A stretch of 64,000 bases of DNA from Octopus vulgaris (lineage: Eukaryota): positions 8,556,001-8,620,000 of the forward strand of contig OX597819.1 in assembly GCA_951406725.2 (NCBI GenBank), read 5' to 3'. The notes below the pieces were generated by a model that worked only from the letters and a program-made list of their open reading frames with translations, was not told where the DNA came from and ran no database searches. How positions within the stretch are numbered: the first letter of the stretch is position 1; every line of letters starts with the position of its first letter. This document shows positions 20,346 to 60,462 of the stretch, in pieces. The translations under genes and the position numbers were made by a program.

Positions 20346-23300
20346 ATGCCACGACGAGGAAGAAGAAAAACATCTGGTTGGTCTATAGATAATGCGAAGA
20401 GAGCACGGCTAAGAAGACGACTTAATCGGACGCGCGGAGAGCTGAGTATCTGGCAGAACAGAGAGAAAGAGACAGAAGCAGGAGAGATCAGGAATCGGAC
20501 GCACGGAGAGCTGAGCGTCTAGCAGAAAAGGGGGAAAGAGAAAGAAGCAGGAGGCAGCATGAATCAGACGCTTGAACAGCTGAACGTCTGGCGAAACAGA
20601 CGGACAGATGCAGAAGCAGGAGATATGATTCGGACATTCAGCGATCTGAACGTCTTTCGCGACAACCCATTACGAATACAGCAAGGACAGTTCAACGACG
20701 CGACCTATCTGCTGATGTTGGACAAATGAACAAGATCTGTGTCTATTGCCATGCAATGTTTTTTCATGCTAAATGTTTTTGCGCCGGAAGCTCCAATATG
20801 ATCATTACAGAGGACAGTGCAGAGTGTTCAGAAAGAACTGAATTAGTTTAATGGTGATTACGAAGGTACGGCAGCTCGGAAAACTCACTCTGATCGTTCT
20901 GATAAGAAAAGAACTCCTGAATTTGTTGGTGAGATCCAGGCTATGATTCGCAACGATGCCTCCAAGTCAATGAGGTCCATCGCCAGAGGCATGGGGGAGT
21001 GTCTGTGTTTCTTATCAAGCAGGTAGTTCATGAAGACATTAGGTATTCCTCATACAAGATGAGGAAGAGCCAATTTTTATCCCAAGCCATCAAAGAAAAG
21101 AGAAAAGACTTTTGCTGTACGAATGGAAAAGTCAGGCTGGGGAATCCGCAGCCTTTACCCCAGAAACGTTACAATCTATTTAGTACTGATCAACCTACTG
21201 CAAATGAGTTCAGGAAGACCCTCGCTTGTTCTAAATGACATCTTTTGGGGGCCCAAAATGTTCCTCCCTCAAGGAGTGGATGGAATTCTTCCATCGTTAT
21301 TCAGGGCCATATTCATCATTGCATCGGTTCCTTAACTCCTAATCACAATGAACAACCCCAATTTCTTCAAATTTACATCTTAGATCCTCAGGATAATGTC
21401 GATTTAAGGATGAGGATATTCCATAACGATAACATTCAGCGTGACATAATTGAATGATTGGAAATTATACTCAGACAATATAACTAAAGGTATATTTTTG
21501 CCAATGTTTACAACGATAAACGCGTTCTATAAACGTGTTTACAGGAGGATTCTCTGAGAACAGGATGAAATACATTTCATTGTTACAAAGTGGACAAAAA
21601 GATTTACCTTTATCATACTGAAAAGATATAGATAGAATATTCCATTCAAAATCAAATTGTTTATTATGATCTTTTAGATACCAAATCAATTGCATCATGT
21701 AGAATGGCAAAAGAACAAATTACAAATATTCCCGGAGCTACGATTATTATTGATCCCGGTCCGAGACCAGCAATAGAACACGAGAGAAGATTCAATGCAC
21801 AAATGCAAACGAAGTTGCCATCATTATACAAAACAGCACCGAAAATCCAAACAACAGCATGGCACATTGTGTGGAAAGAAAAAAGCGGACAACTGCAAAT
21901 ATATGTTGGAGCGATGCCAGGATGCCATGACTTATATACGGAAATACGGCAATGCTTCGGTCTTCATCACAATGACATGCAATCCAAACTAGCCTGAAAC
22001 CCGGCAGAACCTATTCCTGAATCAGAAGTTGCATGGCAGGCCAGATCTAATTGCCAGAGTATTTGATCTGAAGCGGATTCTGTTCATAAATTATTTTACT
22101 GGAGTAGATGGTTTATTTGGCAAATGCATCACTTACGTGATCACCGTCGAATATCAAAAGCGAGGTCTTCCCCATGTACATTGTTTGCTATGGCTCAATG
22201 AAGGAAGACACATTGGTGCTTCAGAAGCTTTTGCCTCAGTCCTCGGATTTCAAATTCATGAGAGGGAACCAGCTGTAGTTCGCCTTCAAGTTCATCTACC
22301 TGAGGAAAATCAAATCTTCTTTCAGGACAATGCTGCTGTTACAGTAAACAATAACAGGCATAGGACAACTCTCATTGAGTTCATGGATCTTTGTGCTTGC
22401 AATCCATTAAAAAAAACTTTGTGTTATGCCGATGTGCCAAGGTTTTACACTTGGAGTAACAAGACATGGGAAAAGAGGAAGGTGGGGAAGAGAGTTGACC
22501 AGTATCCAGGGATTTTTGAGGCGAACGTTTTTGGACGAGTAAATACTGTTTCTCCACGAAGTGGCGAACTATATTACTTAAGAATCCTTCTGCATCAGAT
22601 CGAAGGGACAGTATCGTTCAACTCTTTGAAAATGTGTGATGGAGAACTTTTGCCATTATTCAAAGACGTCTGCAGAGAGAAAGGTTTGCTTCAATCGGAT
22701 GGTCATTGGCAGCAGACTCTGGAGGATGCTGAGCGAACATGGCTTCTCAAAGCCATGTGAGATCTATTCATTGTGCTCCTCACAAATACGGAAATTAACA
22801 ATTCCAGTGCTCTATTGACTTGATTTAGGAATTCGCTGTCTAAGGATTACCTTCAAATAGAAAAAAAGGGTTACCAGAAACATTAACCTTTTGATTAGCA
22901 AGAGACATTATGATCAATGTTTTCTGTATTTCCAAGACAAACTTAATGACCTGGGCAAAAGTCATACTGACTTTAACCTGCCAATGCCAAATGTCGCTAA
23001 TCAGGATATTGGCAATTTGGAATTATTGCATGAGATGCAATACAGCAGAGAAGAGCAGCAACGATGTGTAGAAGAGAGAGAGAGAGAGCCTTTATCGAAT
23101 AGGGAGCAAGAAGATGTGTACATATTTGTTTGTAACAGTTTGCAGAGGAACACATCTGCATTGATTTTCATTGACGCTCCAGGTGTAACAGGAAAGACAT
23201 TCCTGATTAACTTTAATCCTTTCAAAAGTGAGGGGAAACAGCGACGTAGCTATTGCGGCGGTGTCATCTGGTATTGCTGTAACATTGATGCCTAGTGGAA

Positions 23301-24379: not shown

Positions 24380-26810
24380 GTGTATTTCCAATGCTTAAAA
24401 TAACACTGAAAAAATAAATAAATAGTTACCAGAGTAACAAAAAAATTCACACAAGTATCAAGGATGTAACAGCCTATTTATAAAAGTAGAAACTCCATGT
24501 TTAGGTGAAATGTTTTTGTATAATATAGATAAATAAATATATGGTGTTAAAAGCAGGTGTTGTTCAAATCATTTTACTTCTAACATATGTTTCGAAGAAA
24601 ACATTGGTATTATTCCAGAAGTAATAAAATGGTGTAAAACAATTCAATCTTCTCATCAGGAAAAGAAAGAAACCAAGCACATCAATAAGACATTTTAACA
24701 GAATGTGATGACAGCGTATATGATGAAGGAAACGCTAGCAAGTTTTTGTTTTAAACCTGTTAGTAGGTATAACGTCAAAGGTCGTTTATAGAAAGAGAAG
24801 GGGGAGAAAGATAGAAATTAGCATAGTGGAGAGATATAGAGCGATAGTTGAGTATGAATAAAGCTTAAAGGCATGGAAGTAGATATGTTTTATGGAAGGG
24901 AAATGTAAGAAGACAGTGAAGGGTCGAATTTTATAGAATGGTAGAAATCCCTTATGGGAACTAAAGGTATGTTTTTGCCAATGTTTACAACGATAAACGC
25001 GTTCTATAAACGTGTTTACACAAGGATTCTCTGAGAACAGGATGAAATACATTTCACTGTTACAAAGTGGACAAAAAGATTTACCTTTATCATACTGAAA
25101 AGATATAGATAGAATATTCCATTCCAAATCAAATTGTTTATTATGATCTTTTAGATACCAAATCAATTTACTAAGCCCAGTATTGTTATGTTTATTGATA
25201 TGTGTAAATGTAGAGTAATGATTAGATATTCTTTTGGACAACTGAGATGAAGAACTACCTGTATGAAAAAAGACGTCAGAACCGGAAGTAATTTTACATC
25301 GATAAATAGAGTTTCTAGTCTTAGAATTACTGCTAAGGCGACGAATACGATTGGAATCAGCATCAGAAGCATTAATACCGCTGCTATTACTATTTAAAGA
25401 ATGGTTAGTGTTAACAAAATCAATGTTACTATTTTCATTAAGTGGATGTGTATTTAACAACGTATTATTATGCGAAGATGTGGTTTGTGAAAAAAATTTT
25501 TTTAGAAAACCCTATCGTGATTCGGTGTGAATTAATAATCGAATAGTATCTTGAATTTCTTGGGAAATTATTTTCTATAGCTTCACGAAACTGGTAAGGG
25601 AAGTTGGATTTGATCTGCTTACCATATGGAATTATTAACCGAACAGTTTTGCTTGGACATACCTTGTTATTAGGGTAATTATCTTTAAAAGTTCTCAACG
25701 TACCTTTATAACGAAGAAGGGTCTTAAATAACGGTTATCTCCCTTACATTATTCCATTACATTACTCGATTTGGTGTTGTTATTCGAAATAAAATTAATG
25801 TTGTTAATATCGTCATGACTTGATTTCATATCCTGATTAATAGAGGTAGAATTAATGTCAATAGGGTTAATATAGGCATTTTTTCTTTATAGCCTGCTTT
25901 AAGTGAGGCAGAGTTATAAAACTCGGCTTTATCGTTGAAGATATCAACATTAGCAGATAATCTAGAAAGTCTAAGTGAAATATTCCTGACTAAATTCCTT
26001 GTTATAGCCTTTGAGTGTTTACTGAAAGAGTTAACATATTTTAAATCAGTTGAGGGTTTATGGTATGAGAAATATGAATCATTGTGCAAGTTAAGGATAA
26101 TATCCAAAAAGTTGGCTTTAGTTATATCATCGTCAAAAATCATGCTTAAACCCATGTTTCAGAAAAAATTAACTAAGCTATTCTTAACCCTTTATAATTT
26201 TTGGTTAGAGGCATTTTGAAGGTAGAGTAGACAATCATCACGATATAAACCTCTATTGAGAGGTTTATATCGTGATGATTGTCTACTCTACCTTCATATC
26301 GTGATGTCTACTCTACCTTCATATCGTGATGTCTACTCTACCTTTATATCGTGATGATTGTCTACTCTACCTTCAAAATGTTAGGGAATTGGTCAGCCAT
26401 CTCATAAACCGACCAAATCAGCGATTTGTGCTGAATCAGAACTTCGTGACATCAAAACTGTCGGACGTATCTTTCCGGACCCAGAGCTTGTTATCGAATT
26501 TGATAATGGATTTTCTGGCGGCTAACACGACATTAATTTCGTCCCTGGTGAGACCTGCTTTCTATTGAGCGAGCCAGAGTGCCTTGTTGAGTACGATTGG
26601 GCTGATGGAGGGATAGAAACTAGAAATGTCAAACTGGATAAACTTAGTGCACTTCTTGTTATTAATAGAATTAAACCAGTCGATCACTTGAAACGAATTA
26701 GACCATAAATTAAGCTTTAATTTTTTTAACTAAAGTAGGAATATATTCATCTAAAATATTTTTTCTAAGTACACCGATGTTAGTGCTAGAAGGACAAATA
26801 AGTCCATTTA
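24380..26810 (-). mobile_element. Penelope-like retroelement (RT + GIY-YIG endonuclease), decayed, 5'-truncated
   Basis: RT motifs FIQFDISSFYPSI, DSAQIADLVG, GLYRDD, FLDIILNL and YHKP; C-terminal SIYRCK...FFHTG...KRISNH and CPLC..E; hammerhead-like motif in the 3' region. Confidence 0.92.
24577..24665 (-). ncRNA. Hammerhead ribozyme-like motif in the Penelope 3' repeat (possibly degenerate)
   Basis: TTTC-CTGATGA-GAAGA...TCTTC-GAAA-CATATG-TT(A)-GAAG; palindromic stem III as in minimal PLE hammerheads; the cleavage-site register is off by one base. Confidence 0.55.
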
Positions 26811-42094: not shown

Positions 42095-42496
42095 TGACTA
42101 TGATTCTATGAACCGTAAAAATTAATACAGAGAGTTGCTTATTTGCAAAAAAAAAAGAAATATAACATGTGACTTCATTGACCGAGGTTACCGTGGTCTT
42201 TTCCGTAGGCTTTTCTTTCCACGAGTAAACCTCACCTGTCCTCCACTTTACACTTCATATTGACATTTCTGTGATAACGATCCCTTTTGATCAATTTTTT
42301 TTTCCTTTCCTATTTTTTCCTCTCCCCCCCCTTTTTTTTAAAATTTTATTCCCCCCTTTTTTTGTTCTCTTTCTTTCCCTTTACGATCCCTTTTGGTCGA
42401 AAACCAAACCCTCTTTTTTTTACCCCCAAAAGAAAAGCTCTACCTTGTAATTTGTCCTGTCTGTGTGCAGCCCTGTGTGGCTAATAAAGAAACATA
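42095..42496 (+). mobile_element. Family C retroposon with TSD
   Basis: Direct repeat TATTTTAACATGA at 42085-42097 and 42495-42507, partly overlapping the element ends. 5'-truncated copies lie at 49343-49510 (-) and 55158-55475 (+). Confidence 0.9.
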
Positions 42497-43010: not shown

Positions 43011-43080
<70 letters not shown>

Positions 43081-43081
<1 letters not shown>

Positions 43082-43490
43082 GGCGATGAGCTGGCAGAAA
43101 CGTTAGCATACCGGGCGAAATACCTAGCGGTATTTCGTCTGCCATTGCGTTCTCATTTCAAATTCCGCCGTGGTCCACTTTGCCTTTCATCCTTTCGGGG
43201 GTCGATAAATTAAGTACCAGTTACACACTGGGGTCGATGTAATCGACTTAATCCTTTTGTCTGTCCTTGTTTGTCCCCTCTGTGTTTAGCCCCTTGTGGG
43301 TAGTAAAGAAATAGGTATTTTGCCCGTCGCTATGTTCCGAGTTCAAATTCCACCGAGGCTGACTTTGCTATTCAACCTTTCGGGATCAATAAATTAAGTA
43401 CCAGTGAAACACTGGGAATCGATGCAATCGATTAGTCCCCTTCCCTAAATTTCAGGCCTTGTGCCTTTAGTAGAAAGGGTTACTATTATT
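43081..43490 (+). mobile_element. Composite SINE B: head + body + B2 tail + older body + B1 tail
   Basis: A-box-like TGGCAGAAACGTTAG and B-box TTCAAATTCC; junction AAAGAAATA|GGTATTT at 43313/43314. Confidence 0.9.
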
Positions 43491-46622: not shown

Positions 46623-47042
46623 AGGCGGCGAGCTGGCAGAAACGTTAGCACGCCGGGCGAAATGCGTAGCCGTATTTCGTCTGCCGTTGCGTTCTGAGTT
46701 CAAATTCTTCCGAGATCGACTTTGCCTTTCATCCTTTCGGTGTCGATAAATTAAGTACCAGTTACGCACTGGGGTCGATATAATTGATTTAATCCGTTTG
46801 TCTGTCCTTGTTTGTCCCCTCTGTGTTTAGCCCCTTGTGGGTAATAAAGAAATACGTATTTCGTCTGCCGTTGCATTCTGAGTTCAAATTCCGGCGAGGT
46901 CGACTTTGCCTTTCATCCTTTCGGGGTCGATAAATTAAGGACCAGTTACGCACTGGGGTCGATATAATTGATTTAATCCGTTTGTCTGTCCTTGTTTGTC
47001 CTCTCTGTGTTTAGCCCCTTGAGGGTGGTAAAGAAAAAGGTA
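46623..47042 (+). mobile_element. Composite SINE B2-in-B2 dimer
   Basis: Junction AAAGAAATA|CGTATTTCG at 46854/46855; TAACCTA on both flanks. Confidence 0.9.
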
Positions 47043-51844: not shown

Positions 51845-52827
51845 TATTGTCTTCTACACTTGGCACAAGGCCCGAAATTTTGGGGTAGGGAGCCAGTCGA
51901 TTAGATCGAACCAGTACGCAACTGGTACTTAATCTATCGACCCCGAAAGGATAAAAAGCAAAGTCGACCTCGACGGAATTTGAACTTAGACCGTAAAGGC
52001 AGACGAAATACCACAATACCTATTTCTTTATTACCCACAAGGGGCTAAACACAGAGGGGACAAACACGGACATACATAGGTATTAAGTCGATTACATCGA
52101 CCCCAGTGCGTAACTGGTACTTAATCTATCGACCCCGAAAGGATAAAAAGCAAAGTCGACCTCGACGGAATTTGAACTTAGACCGTAAAGGCAGACGAAA
52201 TACCACAATACCTATTTCTTTATTACCCACAAGGGGCTAAACACAGAGGGGACAAACACGGACAGACATAGGTATTAAGTCGATTACATCGACCCCAGTG
52301 CGTAACTGGTACTTAATCTATCGACCCCGAAAGGATAAAAAGCAAAGTCGACCTCGGCGGAATTTGAACTTAGACCGTAAAGGCAGACGAAATACCACAA
52401 TACCTATTTCTTTATTACCCACAAGGGGCTAAACACAGAGGGGACAAACACGGACAGACATAGGTATTAAGTCGATTACATCGACCCCAGTGCGTAACTG
52501 GTACTTAATCTATCGACCCCGAAAGGATAAAAAGCAAAGTCGACCTCGGCGGAATTTGAACTTAGACCGTAAAGGCAGACGAAATACCACAATACCTATT
52601 TCTTTATTACCCACAAGGGGCTAAACACAGAGGGGACAAACACGGACAGACATAGGTATTAAGTCGATTACATCGACCCCAGTGCGTAACTGGTACTTAA
52701 TTTATCGACCCCGAAAGGATGAAAGGCAAAGTCGACCTCGGCGGAATTTGAACTCACAACGTAACGCAGACGAAATACCGCAAAGCATTTCTCCCGGCGT
52801 GCTAACGTTTCTGCCAGCTCGCCGCCT
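51845..52827 (-). repeat. SINE B-derived tandem array, 192-bp period
   Basis: TATTTCTTTATTACCC starts at 52021, 52213, 52405 and 52597; a single head at ~52827 and a single B1 tail at ~51845. Confidence 0.96.
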
Positions 52828-60078: not shown

Positions 60079-60462
60079 CAGTGTTTCTCAACCTTTTTTT
60101 GTTTTTACCTATAGATCCCTTTGATTTCTATTTTACTTGGATGAATCTTCCTAGCCAATCACCATTTAAAAAAATCTTATCATAATTTATTAATTAAATA
60201 TTAAAAGGAACTGTATTAAAAAAATTGTTAAAATATTTTGTGTACTGCAGAAGTATATATTTCTTTACTATAAAAAGAGATCTGTGCATCGGCCGGGAAT
60301 CGAACCCGGGCCGACCGCGTGGCAGACGAGCATTCTACCACTGAACCACCGATGCTCACTGAACCACCTGCAGAAGTATAACCGATTTATTGCTGTTAAT
60401 TTTAACAGCAAAATCTTATGTTGGCCTGTAAAGGCCATGTGAACCTCGGTTGAGAACCACTG
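60079..60462. mobile_element. hAT (Charlie-like) MITE, itself inside a decayed SINE A
   Basis: TIRs CAGTGTTTCTCAACC / GGTTGAGAACCACTG; flanks 60020-60078 and 60463-60535 align to family A. A lone similar TIR lies at ~33531-33545. Confidence 0.85.
60285..60355 (-). tRNA. tRNA-Gly(GCC) sequence, most likely a retroposed copy
   Basis: GCATCGGTGGTTCAGTGGTAGAATGCTCGTCTGCCACGCGGTCGGCCCGGGTTCGATTCCCGGCCGATGCA folds as a cloverleaf with anticodon GCC. The anticodon stem has a C27-U43 mismatch and a U31-G39 pair. No CCA; a trailer and T5 follow; flanked by a 13-bp TSD. Confidence 0.93.

What the first reader, a model, noticed from the sequence alone, without database searches (positions are those of the whole stretch)
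60245..60380. Chimeric pre-tRNA-Gly retrocopy carrying the retroposon 3' tail: a possible SINE caught at birth
Seen: between two copies of CTGCAGAAGTATA (60245-60257, 60368-60380), the + (cDNA) strand reads TATTTCTTTACTA, one extra T, AAAAAGAGATCTG, the whole tRNA-Gly, one extra T, then CACTGAACCAC. The first 13 nt are the exact complement of the SINE B2 end TAGTAAAGAAATA (43301-43313). The next segment looks like an unprocessed Pol III trailer with its oligo-U terminator and no CCA. The last 11 nt re-copy tRNA positions 7-17. Known: R2-type reverse transcriptases jump end-to-end onto new RNA 3' ends after adding non-templated bases, and tRNA head + LINE tail is the standard SINE architecture. 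Inference: priming began on the retroposon tail, jumped onto a nascent pre-tRNA and then jumped again. The product sits inside a hAT MITE inside an old SINE A, so it is unlikely to be an ancestral tRNA locus.
Basis: partly seen in the sequence, partly recalled or inferred. Interest (0 to 1): 0.75.

Follow-up and report, generated by a model that had tools for sequence, protein, structure and literature searches.

The report
Pre-tRNA retrocopy with a retroposon tail
A 110-base insertion joins an unprocessed glycine tRNA copy to the last 13 bases of a mobile element; it is a single copy, likely a dead-end by-product of a jumping gene's copying enzyme rather than a new mobile element, and dozens of similar tRNA and U6 fusions lie elsewhere in the same genome.

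Summary
A 110-nt insert (pre-tRNA-Gly with leader and trailer, one A, 13-nt tail) lies between identical 13-bp duplications in a MITE; 23 of 27 other MITE copies show one empty site, none a tRNA. The likely source gene (L033) differs at 3 of 88 positions and lacks the tail. The tail is the end of a CORE-type SINE that shares its 3' end with an L1/Tx1-like LINE. One correction: the 5' 'extra T' is the native leader GTGA, so the second jump used a 3-nt microhomology. The locus is not unique: a U6 copy (L235) carries the same 13-nt tail, and 37 of 103 tRNA and 36 of 47 U6 loci sampled have a sense retroposon piece within 45 nt downstream (random anchors 65 of 1000). 'SINE at birth' is not supported: it is single-copy, the terminator precedes the tail, and the tail lacks the hairpin. 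It belongs to the U6/LINE chimera kind; full-length sense pre-tRNA heads on several tail families at this frequency were not found in the papers searched. This scan noted related chimeras before (e1-8670349, e1-9231776).

The parts
60245..60257 (.). target site duplication, copy at the 3' side of the RNA sense (13 bp)
   Evidence: identical to 60368-60380; single site in 23 of 27 other MITE copies
60258..60270 (-). terminal 13 nt of the CORE-type SINE ('B2'), whose 3' end is shared with an L1/Tx1-like LINE
   Evidence: exact match to 43301-43313; same 13 nt on U6 copy L235
60271..60271 (-). single junction A; non-templated, oligoadenylation or read-through of the source gene (T7 then A); undecided
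60272..60284 (-). unprocessed pre-tRNA 3' trailer with T5 terminator, no CCA
   Evidence: 12 of 13 nt equal to the trailer of gene L033
60285..60355 (-). tRNA-Gly(GCC) body, 71 nt, two changes (positions 30 and 42, both in the anticodon stem); A and B boxes unchanged
   Evidence: ARAGORN; comparison with 38 Gly loci
60356..60359 (-). native 5' leader GTGA of the source gene; its GTG equals tRNA positions 15-17
   Evidence: L033, L050, L054, L069 have the same leader; only 4 nt are shared upstream with L033
60360..60367 (-). re-copy of tRNA positions 7-14 (7-17 with the shared GTG); second jump
   Evidence: 1-nt overlap (G) with the TSD
60368..60380 (.). target site duplication, copy at the 5' side of the RNA sense
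60079..60462 (.). host MITE with 15-bp inverted ends (14 of 15 alike); hAT label recalled, not tested
   Evidence: best other copies about 76-82% alike
43079..43313 (+). SINE copy that shows the donor 3' end
42095..42494 (+). 3' end of the L1/Tx1-like LINE that shares the tail (35 of the last 44 nt equal to the SINE's)

Best explanation
The insert is a single-copy fusion of a pre-tRNA-Gly (leader, body, trailer) to the last 13 bases of a SINE, bounded by a 13-bp duplication, and it was likely made in one target-primed reverse transcription by an L1/Tx1-like LINE enzyme that likely switched templates twice. Inferred order: the enzyme nicked the MITE and copied 13 nt of the SINE RNA up to the foot of a small predicted hairpin. 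It then moved to the oligo-U 3' end of a pre-tRNA from gene L033 or a close paralogue and copied it to the end of its leader. The cDNA end CAC then re-annealed to GUG in the D-loop (positions 15-17) and ran to the base of the acceptor stem before joining the target. The copy keeps its A and B boxes, but a Pol III transcript would stop at T5 before the tail, so it would not be mobilised as a SINE. It is one member of a genome-wide class of Pol III RNA + retroposon-tail chimeras.
For: Shown: empty site in 23 of 27 MITE copies and tRNA in 0 of 27. L033 is the closest of 38 Gly loci (3 of 88 differences), lacks the tail, and shares only 4 nt upstream. No second copy was found (1 match; 1 of 40 loci). 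The SINE and the LINE share their 3' end; the LINE ORF has RVT_1 and zf-RVT, and its best solved relative is LINE-1 ORF2p (E 2e-30, against 2e-16 for R2). U6 copy L235 has the same 13-nt tail and a 9-bp TSD, two bases of which overlap the tail; L244 has the 13-nt tail and an 11-bp TSD. Class: 37 of 103 tRNA and 36 of 47 U6 loci, against 6 of 103 and 2 of 47 on the upstream side, 65 of 1000 random anchors and 26 of 1000 anchors at T4 runs (Fisher p 9e-8 and 1e-13). Whole-unit duplications of 9 bp or more occur in 8 of 67 testable chimeras (permutation mean 1.1, max 5); tail-only duplications in 0 of 67. L051, L081, L156 and L162, all with this tail family, have 13-15 bp. 5' truncation occurs in 13 of 31 tailed tRNA copies against 5 of 52 untailed (p 0.0009). 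Known: U6 chimeras with L1, L2, RTE and their SINEs (PMC4476161, section 10).
Against: DNA cannot distinguish template switching from RNA ligation before insertion (PMC6789731, abstract; PMC8857657, passages, says LINE-1 assay chimeras arise from preligation). The source is not an exact match, and no gene with the exact trailer exists in this assembly. The hairpin folds no better than shuffles (z -1.5 to +0.9). No orthologous empty allele was seen. A 5' re-copy is rare (2 of 73 chimeras), and two DNA-level steps could also give it. Most chimeras with the CR1/L2-like tail show no clear TSD, and one of the five TSDs of 12 bp or more (L173) is tandem SINE homology, not a TSD. Transcription and termination were not tested.
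Confidence: 0.72

Rival explanations
1. The pre-tRNA and a 13-nt SINE fragment were ligated as RNA (RtcB-type or another ligase) and the chimeric RNA was then retrotransposed; only the 5' re-copy is a template jump.
For: RtcB joins U6 to L1 RNA, and such RNAs retrotranspose (PMC6789731, abstract). Joints cluster right after the oligo-U end of U6 and pre-tRNAs, and many U6 copies are followed by full-length SINE heads.
Against: RtcB needs a 2',3'-cyclic phosphate (section title), while nascent pre-tRNA ends in 3'-OH oligo-U (established knowledge, recalled). A 13-nt fragment without the hairpin would be a poor substrate for stringent recognition (inference). In a CR1/L2-like LINE, 14 of 30 sampled copies break just upstream of the hairpin with no tRNA or U6 seen upstream (read by eye), so the enzyme stops there by itself.
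Confidence: 0.17
2. A true proto-SINE: the locus is transcribed through its T5 terminator into the tail and can be, or was, mobilised.
For: A and B boxes are unchanged; tRNA head + LINE tail is the SINE plan (PMC5729268, passages, proposes such an origin for PittSINE).
Against: One copy only; terminator upstream of the tail; tail without hairpin; 3.4% divergence with no daughter found; no two tRNA chimeras share both trailer and joint.
Confidence: 0.05
3. Two separate events or a DNA-level copy: a tRNA gene was duplicated into the MITE and a truncated SINE end later inserted behind its terminator, or the 13-mer match is chance.
For: Oligo-T followed by the 13-mer also occurs without an RNA or TSD at 5 of 14 separate loci examined (reversed-pattern control 18 matches). 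Very short truncated tails are common in this genome.
Against: One perfect 13-bp TSD bounds the whole unit, and there is no trailer duplication after the tail. Homology to L033 ends at the leader and at the terminator. The match ends exactly at the SINE's last base, and the same joint recurs on U6.
Confidence: 0.06

Closest known systems
U6/L1, U6/L2, U6/RTE and U6/SINE (Mon-1, AnolisSINE2) chimeric pseudogenes (PMC4476161: passages and section 10 read)
   Same: Pol III RNA joined in sense at its oligo-U end to a retroposon 3' piece, one TSD around the unit, several LINE clades and their SINEs as donors, short tails and 5'-truncated heads as in platypus.
   Different: The head here is a pre-tRNA with leader and trailer; the tail is only 13 nt; there is a second jump at the 5' end; the host is an invertebrate.
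Human tRNA/LINE-1 chimeras (PMC13174262: passages)
   Same: tRNA and LINE piece inserted together with 9-19 bp TSDs.
   Different: 21 loci, mostly tRNA halves in antisense, explained by twin priming. Here the tRNAs are mostly full-length, sense and carry trailers, and make up 37 of 103 loci sampled.
Pre-tRNA and tailless retropseudogenes (Schmitz 2004; paper not held; known only from its citation in PMC4476161 and PMC4494074)
   Same: Pre-tRNA copied into DNA by LINE machinery.
   Different: As cited, these carry no retroposon tail; I could not check the original.
PittSINE (PMC5729268: passages) and SINEU with Tx1-Mar (PMC4494074: passages)
   Same: New small-RNA head put on a LINE-derived tail by proposed template switch; Tx1 partner for SINEU.
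   Different: These amplified into families from master copies; this locus is single-copy, which is the distinction Kojima draws between SINE families and sums of independent chimeric retrocopies.
RtcB-ligated U6/L1 RNAs (PMC6789731: abstract and section list)
   Same: Same end product in DNA.
   Different: Needs a cyclic phosphate end; not tested here.

Membership tests
Small-RNA/LINE or SINE chimeric retrocopy | One TSD bounds RNA copy plus tail | tested here: met
   13 bp, identical; empty site in 23 of 27 MITE copies
Small-RNA/LINE or SINE chimeric retrocopy | 5' part copies a cellular RNA, homology ending at transcript bounds | tested here: met
   L033: 4-nt leader to terminator, 3 of 88 differences
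Small-RNA/LINE or SINE chimeric retrocopy | 3' part is the true 3' end of a retroposon, same orientation | tested here: met
   exact last 13 nt of the SINE; recurs on U6 L235
Small-RNA/LINE or SINE chimeric retrocopy | Joint made by template switch rather than RNA ligation | not testable with these tools
   both give the same DNA
tRNA-derived SINE family | Internal Pol III promoter (A and B boxes) | tested here: met
   both changes lie in the anticodon stem; activity not tested
tRNA-derived SINE family | Multiple dispersed copies from a master | tested here: not met
   1 match genome-wide for tRNA end + trailer; 1 of 40 Gly loci with this tail
tRNA-derived SINE family | Transcript includes the LINE-recognised tail (no terminator before it) | tested here: not met
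   T5 at 60276-60272 lies upstream of the tail; 26 of 37 tRNA chimeras have T4 or more there; read-through not measured
tRNA-derived SINE family | Tail keeps the partner LINE's 3' stem-loop | tested here: not met
   the 13 nt begin at the last base of the predicted inner stem; the fold itself is weak
Functional tRNA gene | Intact cloverleaf at a native locus | tested here: not met
   C26-G42 pair broken, C30-G38 turned into a wobble; lies inside a MITE between TSDs
Tx1 group of L1-clade LINEs (partner) | L1-clade RT with C-terminal zinc domain | tested here: met
   RVT_1, zf-RVT, closest solved relative LINE-1 ORF2p
Tx1 group of L1-clade LINEs (partner) | Placement in Tx1 by RT tree | not tested
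   label rests on recalled motifs, the (TATC)n context and earlier AI notes

The most novel reading that the evidence does not exclude
This genome is a SINE nursery. LINE enzymes of at least three kinds (L1/Tx1-like, CR1/L2-like, RTE-like) routinely capture nascent pre-tRNAs and U6 at their oligo-U ends, leaving dozens to hundreds of independent tRNA-head + LINE-tail fusions, the predicted first step of SINE birth. Most are sealed off by their own terminator, but those fused inside the tRNA or before the terminator (L032, L132, L142, L187) could be transcribed with an intact hairpin tail and act as real proto-SINEs. That would make the origin of SINEs directly testable, and it means a quarter to a third of apparent tRNA genes here are fossils.
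Probability: 0.3. Interest if true: 0.68.

Novelty: new variant of a known kind. Interest (0 to 1): 0.42.

Why it matters
The locus itself is a clean but inert fossil. Its value is as an entry to a class. It shows the long-proposed first step of SINE formation (tRNA head gains a LINE tail) as many dated, independent events traceable to single tRNA genes by their trailers. It also offers a simple reason why that step rarely yields a SINE: the captured terminator sits before the tail. In practice, tRNA and U6 gene counts in this genome are inflated: 14 of 17 exact-match Lys(UUU) loci and 36 of 47 top U6 hits carry retroposon pieces.

Tried and rejected
Exact source search: tRNA end + trailer gave only the window itself. 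A generic B-box + gap + tail pattern could not be run; shorter patterns gave one U6 hit. They also gave 104 oligo-T + tail matches, of which 100 were listed, most from one tandem array on C14. The 14 separate loci examined were: the window, U6 L235, L244, 6 SINE copies with a mutated or repeated end, and 5 without RNA or TSD. An Rfam scan of 13 of these loci found no Pol III RNA next to the tail. Reads: two layings on contigs of 6 runs showed no orthologous empty allele; the joints seen came from paralogous MITEs, and the second laying was uninformative. No RNA run held more than 0.07 of the words, so expression is untested. The first classifier was dropped because a microsatellite in one reference inflated the controls; one search replaces it. 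Hairpin folds did not beat shuffles. NCBIfam gave nothing for the LINE ORF. Rejected: non-templated T at the 5' joint; DNA duplication of a gene that natively carries the tail; tail inserted behind a standing gene; amplification from a chimeric master. Schmitz 2004 and Buzdin 2003 were not held; no supplements were read.

Full report
Setting. The window is G000:C6:8556001-8620000 of a 2.8-Gb genome; an octopus is inferred from the repeat content and earlier notes, not from a label. ARAGORN finds one tRNA in the window, Gly(GCC) on the minus strand.

Anatomy. Read on the minus strand, the 110-nt insert is: GTGGTTCA, GTGA, the 71-nt tRNA, trailer CAGATCTCTTTTT, one A, TAGTAAAGAAATA. It lies between two identical 13-bp copies in a MITE (60079-60462) that interrupts a decayed SINE. 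The 13-mer has two exact copies in the window, here and at the SINE end 43301-43313.

Empty sites. Of 27 other MITE copies fetched (the best of 2154 candidates), 23 run straight through a single site and none holds a tRNA; 4 are broken at or near that point by other sequence. Both duplicated copies share a C found in only 2 of 27 paralogues, so the duplication was made on this copy after it had decayed. A contig of run X4 (a second species label) matches 60228-60309 without a difference, and one of X2 spans the 5' joint. No orthologous empty allele was seen.

Source gene. Forty loci carry the exact tRNA-Gly 3' 22-mer (all 40 read, 38 after merging near-identical paralogues). L033 is closest: same leader GTGA, 12 of 13 trailer bases, 3 of 88 differences in all; the next best has 5. 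L033 is followed by T7-A-T6 and flank sequence without the tail, and shares only 4 nt upstream with the insert. So the 5' 'extra' base is leader, and the leader's GTG equals tRNA positions 15-17 in the D-loop: a 3-nt microhomology explains the re-copy of positions 7-17, which stops at the base of the acceptor stem (inference). The 3' A may be non-templated, an added adenylate or read-through; this is undecided.

Partner LINE. The SINE's last 44 nt match at 35 positions the end of a repeat at 42095-42494 (sequences). Longer copies carry an ORF with RVT_1 and zf-RVT whose best solved relative is LINE-1 ORF2p, and most are followed by (TATC)n. I call it L1/Tx1-like; the Tx1 label is recalled and not tree-tested. 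The TAGT form and final ATA point to the SINE, not the LINE, as donor. The 13 nt begin at the last base of a small predicted stem, which folds no better than shuffles.

It is a class. I examined 164 RNA loci, 150 after merging duplicates: all 40 Gly and all 17 Lys(UUU) exact matches; 28 of 56 Ala/Cys matches (one more sits in the Rfam set; 27 members of one Cys array were left out); 31 of 34 Rfam tRNA hits directly (two others are in the Lys set; L220 was left out and shows no tail); and all 48 U6 hits. A sense retroposon piece starts within 45 nt of the 3' end in 37 of 103 tRNA loci and 36 of 47 U6 loci. Controls: 6 of 103 and 2 of 47 on the upstream side, 65 of 1000 random anchors, 26 of 1000 anchors at T4 runs. 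With the Cys array counted as untailed, the tRNA share would be 37 of 130. These samples favour young and well-scoring copies and are not random. L065 is probably a false positive, L142 is a fusion scored on the wrong piece, and a few candidates were missed (L169, L209, L219). Tails come from the L1/Tx1-type pair, from a LINE with CR1/L2-like motifs (label recalled) and its SINE, and from an RTE-like element (label recalled).

Whole units, not tails behind genes. Among 67 testable chimeras, a duplication of 9 bp or more bounds the whole unit in 8 (permutation mean 1.1, max 5) and bounds the tail alone in 0 (mean 0.67). The four real long ones (L051, L081, L156, L162; 13-15 bp) all carry the L1/Tx1-type tail; L173 is tandem homology. 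Most chimeras with the CR1/L2-like tail show no clear TSD, as reported for U6-L2 in platypus (PMC4476161, section 10), so single-event origin is less secure for them. Tailed tRNA copies are more often 5'-truncated (13 of 31 against 5 of 52), and none of the Gly, Ala, Cys or Lys units in those pattern sets is followed by CCA. One Ala trailer occurs with four different tails (L075, L185, L192, L210), which argues for independent events. L244 has the same tail with an 11-bp TSD but no clear RNA head.

Not a SINE. There is one copy. The terminator precedes the tail here and in 26 of 37 tRNA chimeras. The tail lacks the hairpin, and no two tRNA chimeras share trailer and joint. Better proto-SINE candidates are fusions inside the tRNA or before the terminator (L032, L132, L142, L187); none was shown to be amplified or transcribed.

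Literature. U6 chimeras with L1, L2, RTE and their SINEs are known and ascribed to template switching (PMC4476161, passages and section 10); RtcB ligation is the tested alternative (PMC6789731, abstract and section list). Human tRNA/L1 chimeras number 21 and are mostly antisense halves (PMC13174262, passages). PittSINE is proposed to have arisen by a switch onto a tRNA (PMC5729268, passages), and SINEU is distinguished from sums of chimeric retrocopies (PMC4494074, passages). R2 RT needs non-templated addition to jump, adds mainly A, and jumps best with a 1-2 nt overhang complementary to the acceptor (PMC8857657, passages); this would favour oligo-U ends (my inference), though that paper calls long A overhangs non-productive. 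An octopus repeat annotation lists 'U' and 'U-L1' SINE categories without the word chimera (PMC13282606, passages). PMC4758252 and PMC3747384 (passages) and PMC5786205 (abstract) added background only. Eight searches found no report of frequent sense pre-tRNA + tail chimeras in a mollusc; subscription papers, Schmitz 2004, Buzdin 2003 and all supplements were not seen.

Verdict. The feature is real and well explained as a new variant of a known kind. The locus is a dead end; the class around it is the part worth follow-up. Interest 0.42.

Noticed in passing
L095 (G000:C1:159763971-159764043): Mature tRNA-Lys copy ending in CCA between duplicated flanks of about 15 bp and without a retroposon tail: a second route of tRNA retroposition.
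   Followed up: no
L132-L148: Of 17 exact-match Lys(UUU) loci only L145 looks like a native gene; the source genes of at least eight other trailers were not among the matches (unassembled, diverged or lost).
   Followed up: partly
L138 and L140, downstream of the tRNA: Two Lys copies on different chromosomes share about 50 nt after the terminator that match no reference used: read-through of a source gene or an unidentified tail family.
   Followed up: no
L136 and L146: Both share a trailer and three CpG-type changes in the tRNA but have different joints; a possible trace of a common master or a variant source gene.
   Followed up: no
L229, L167, L236: U6 copies with U6 fragments re-copied upstream (L229; L167 also inverted) or a tandem second U6 (L236): further multi-jump 5' ends.
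   Followed up: partly
L156, L162, L171, L172, L222, L226, L233, L081, L210: U6 or tRNA joined directly to the 5' end of a full-length SINE; L081, L156 and L162 lie inside one 14-15 bp duplication.
   Followed up: partly
window 52021-52820 (-), 46640-47040 (+), 43079-43480 (+): SINE tails are followed by GGTATTT and a further SINE body, forming head-to-tail arrays of 192-nt units; fits earlier notes on insertion into SINE heads.
   Followed up: partly
L270-L299: A young LINE with CR1/L2-like motifs has 1507 exact tail matches; 14 of the first 30 are pieces of about 40-60 nt cut just upstream of the terminal hairpin.
   Followed up: partly
G000:C14:37346863-37351029: Tandem array of about 43-nt units, each containing TAGTAAAGAAATA, next to a run of N.
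   Followed up: no
window 21993-22760 (+) and 24786-25511 (-): Open frames that resemble a Helitron Rep/helicase fragment and a Penelope-type endonuclease fragment (resemblance recalled, not searched).
   Followed up: no
G000:C12:25259264-25419560: Large tandem cluster of tRNA-Cys genes at about 155-nt spacing, with variant anticodons.
   Followed up: no
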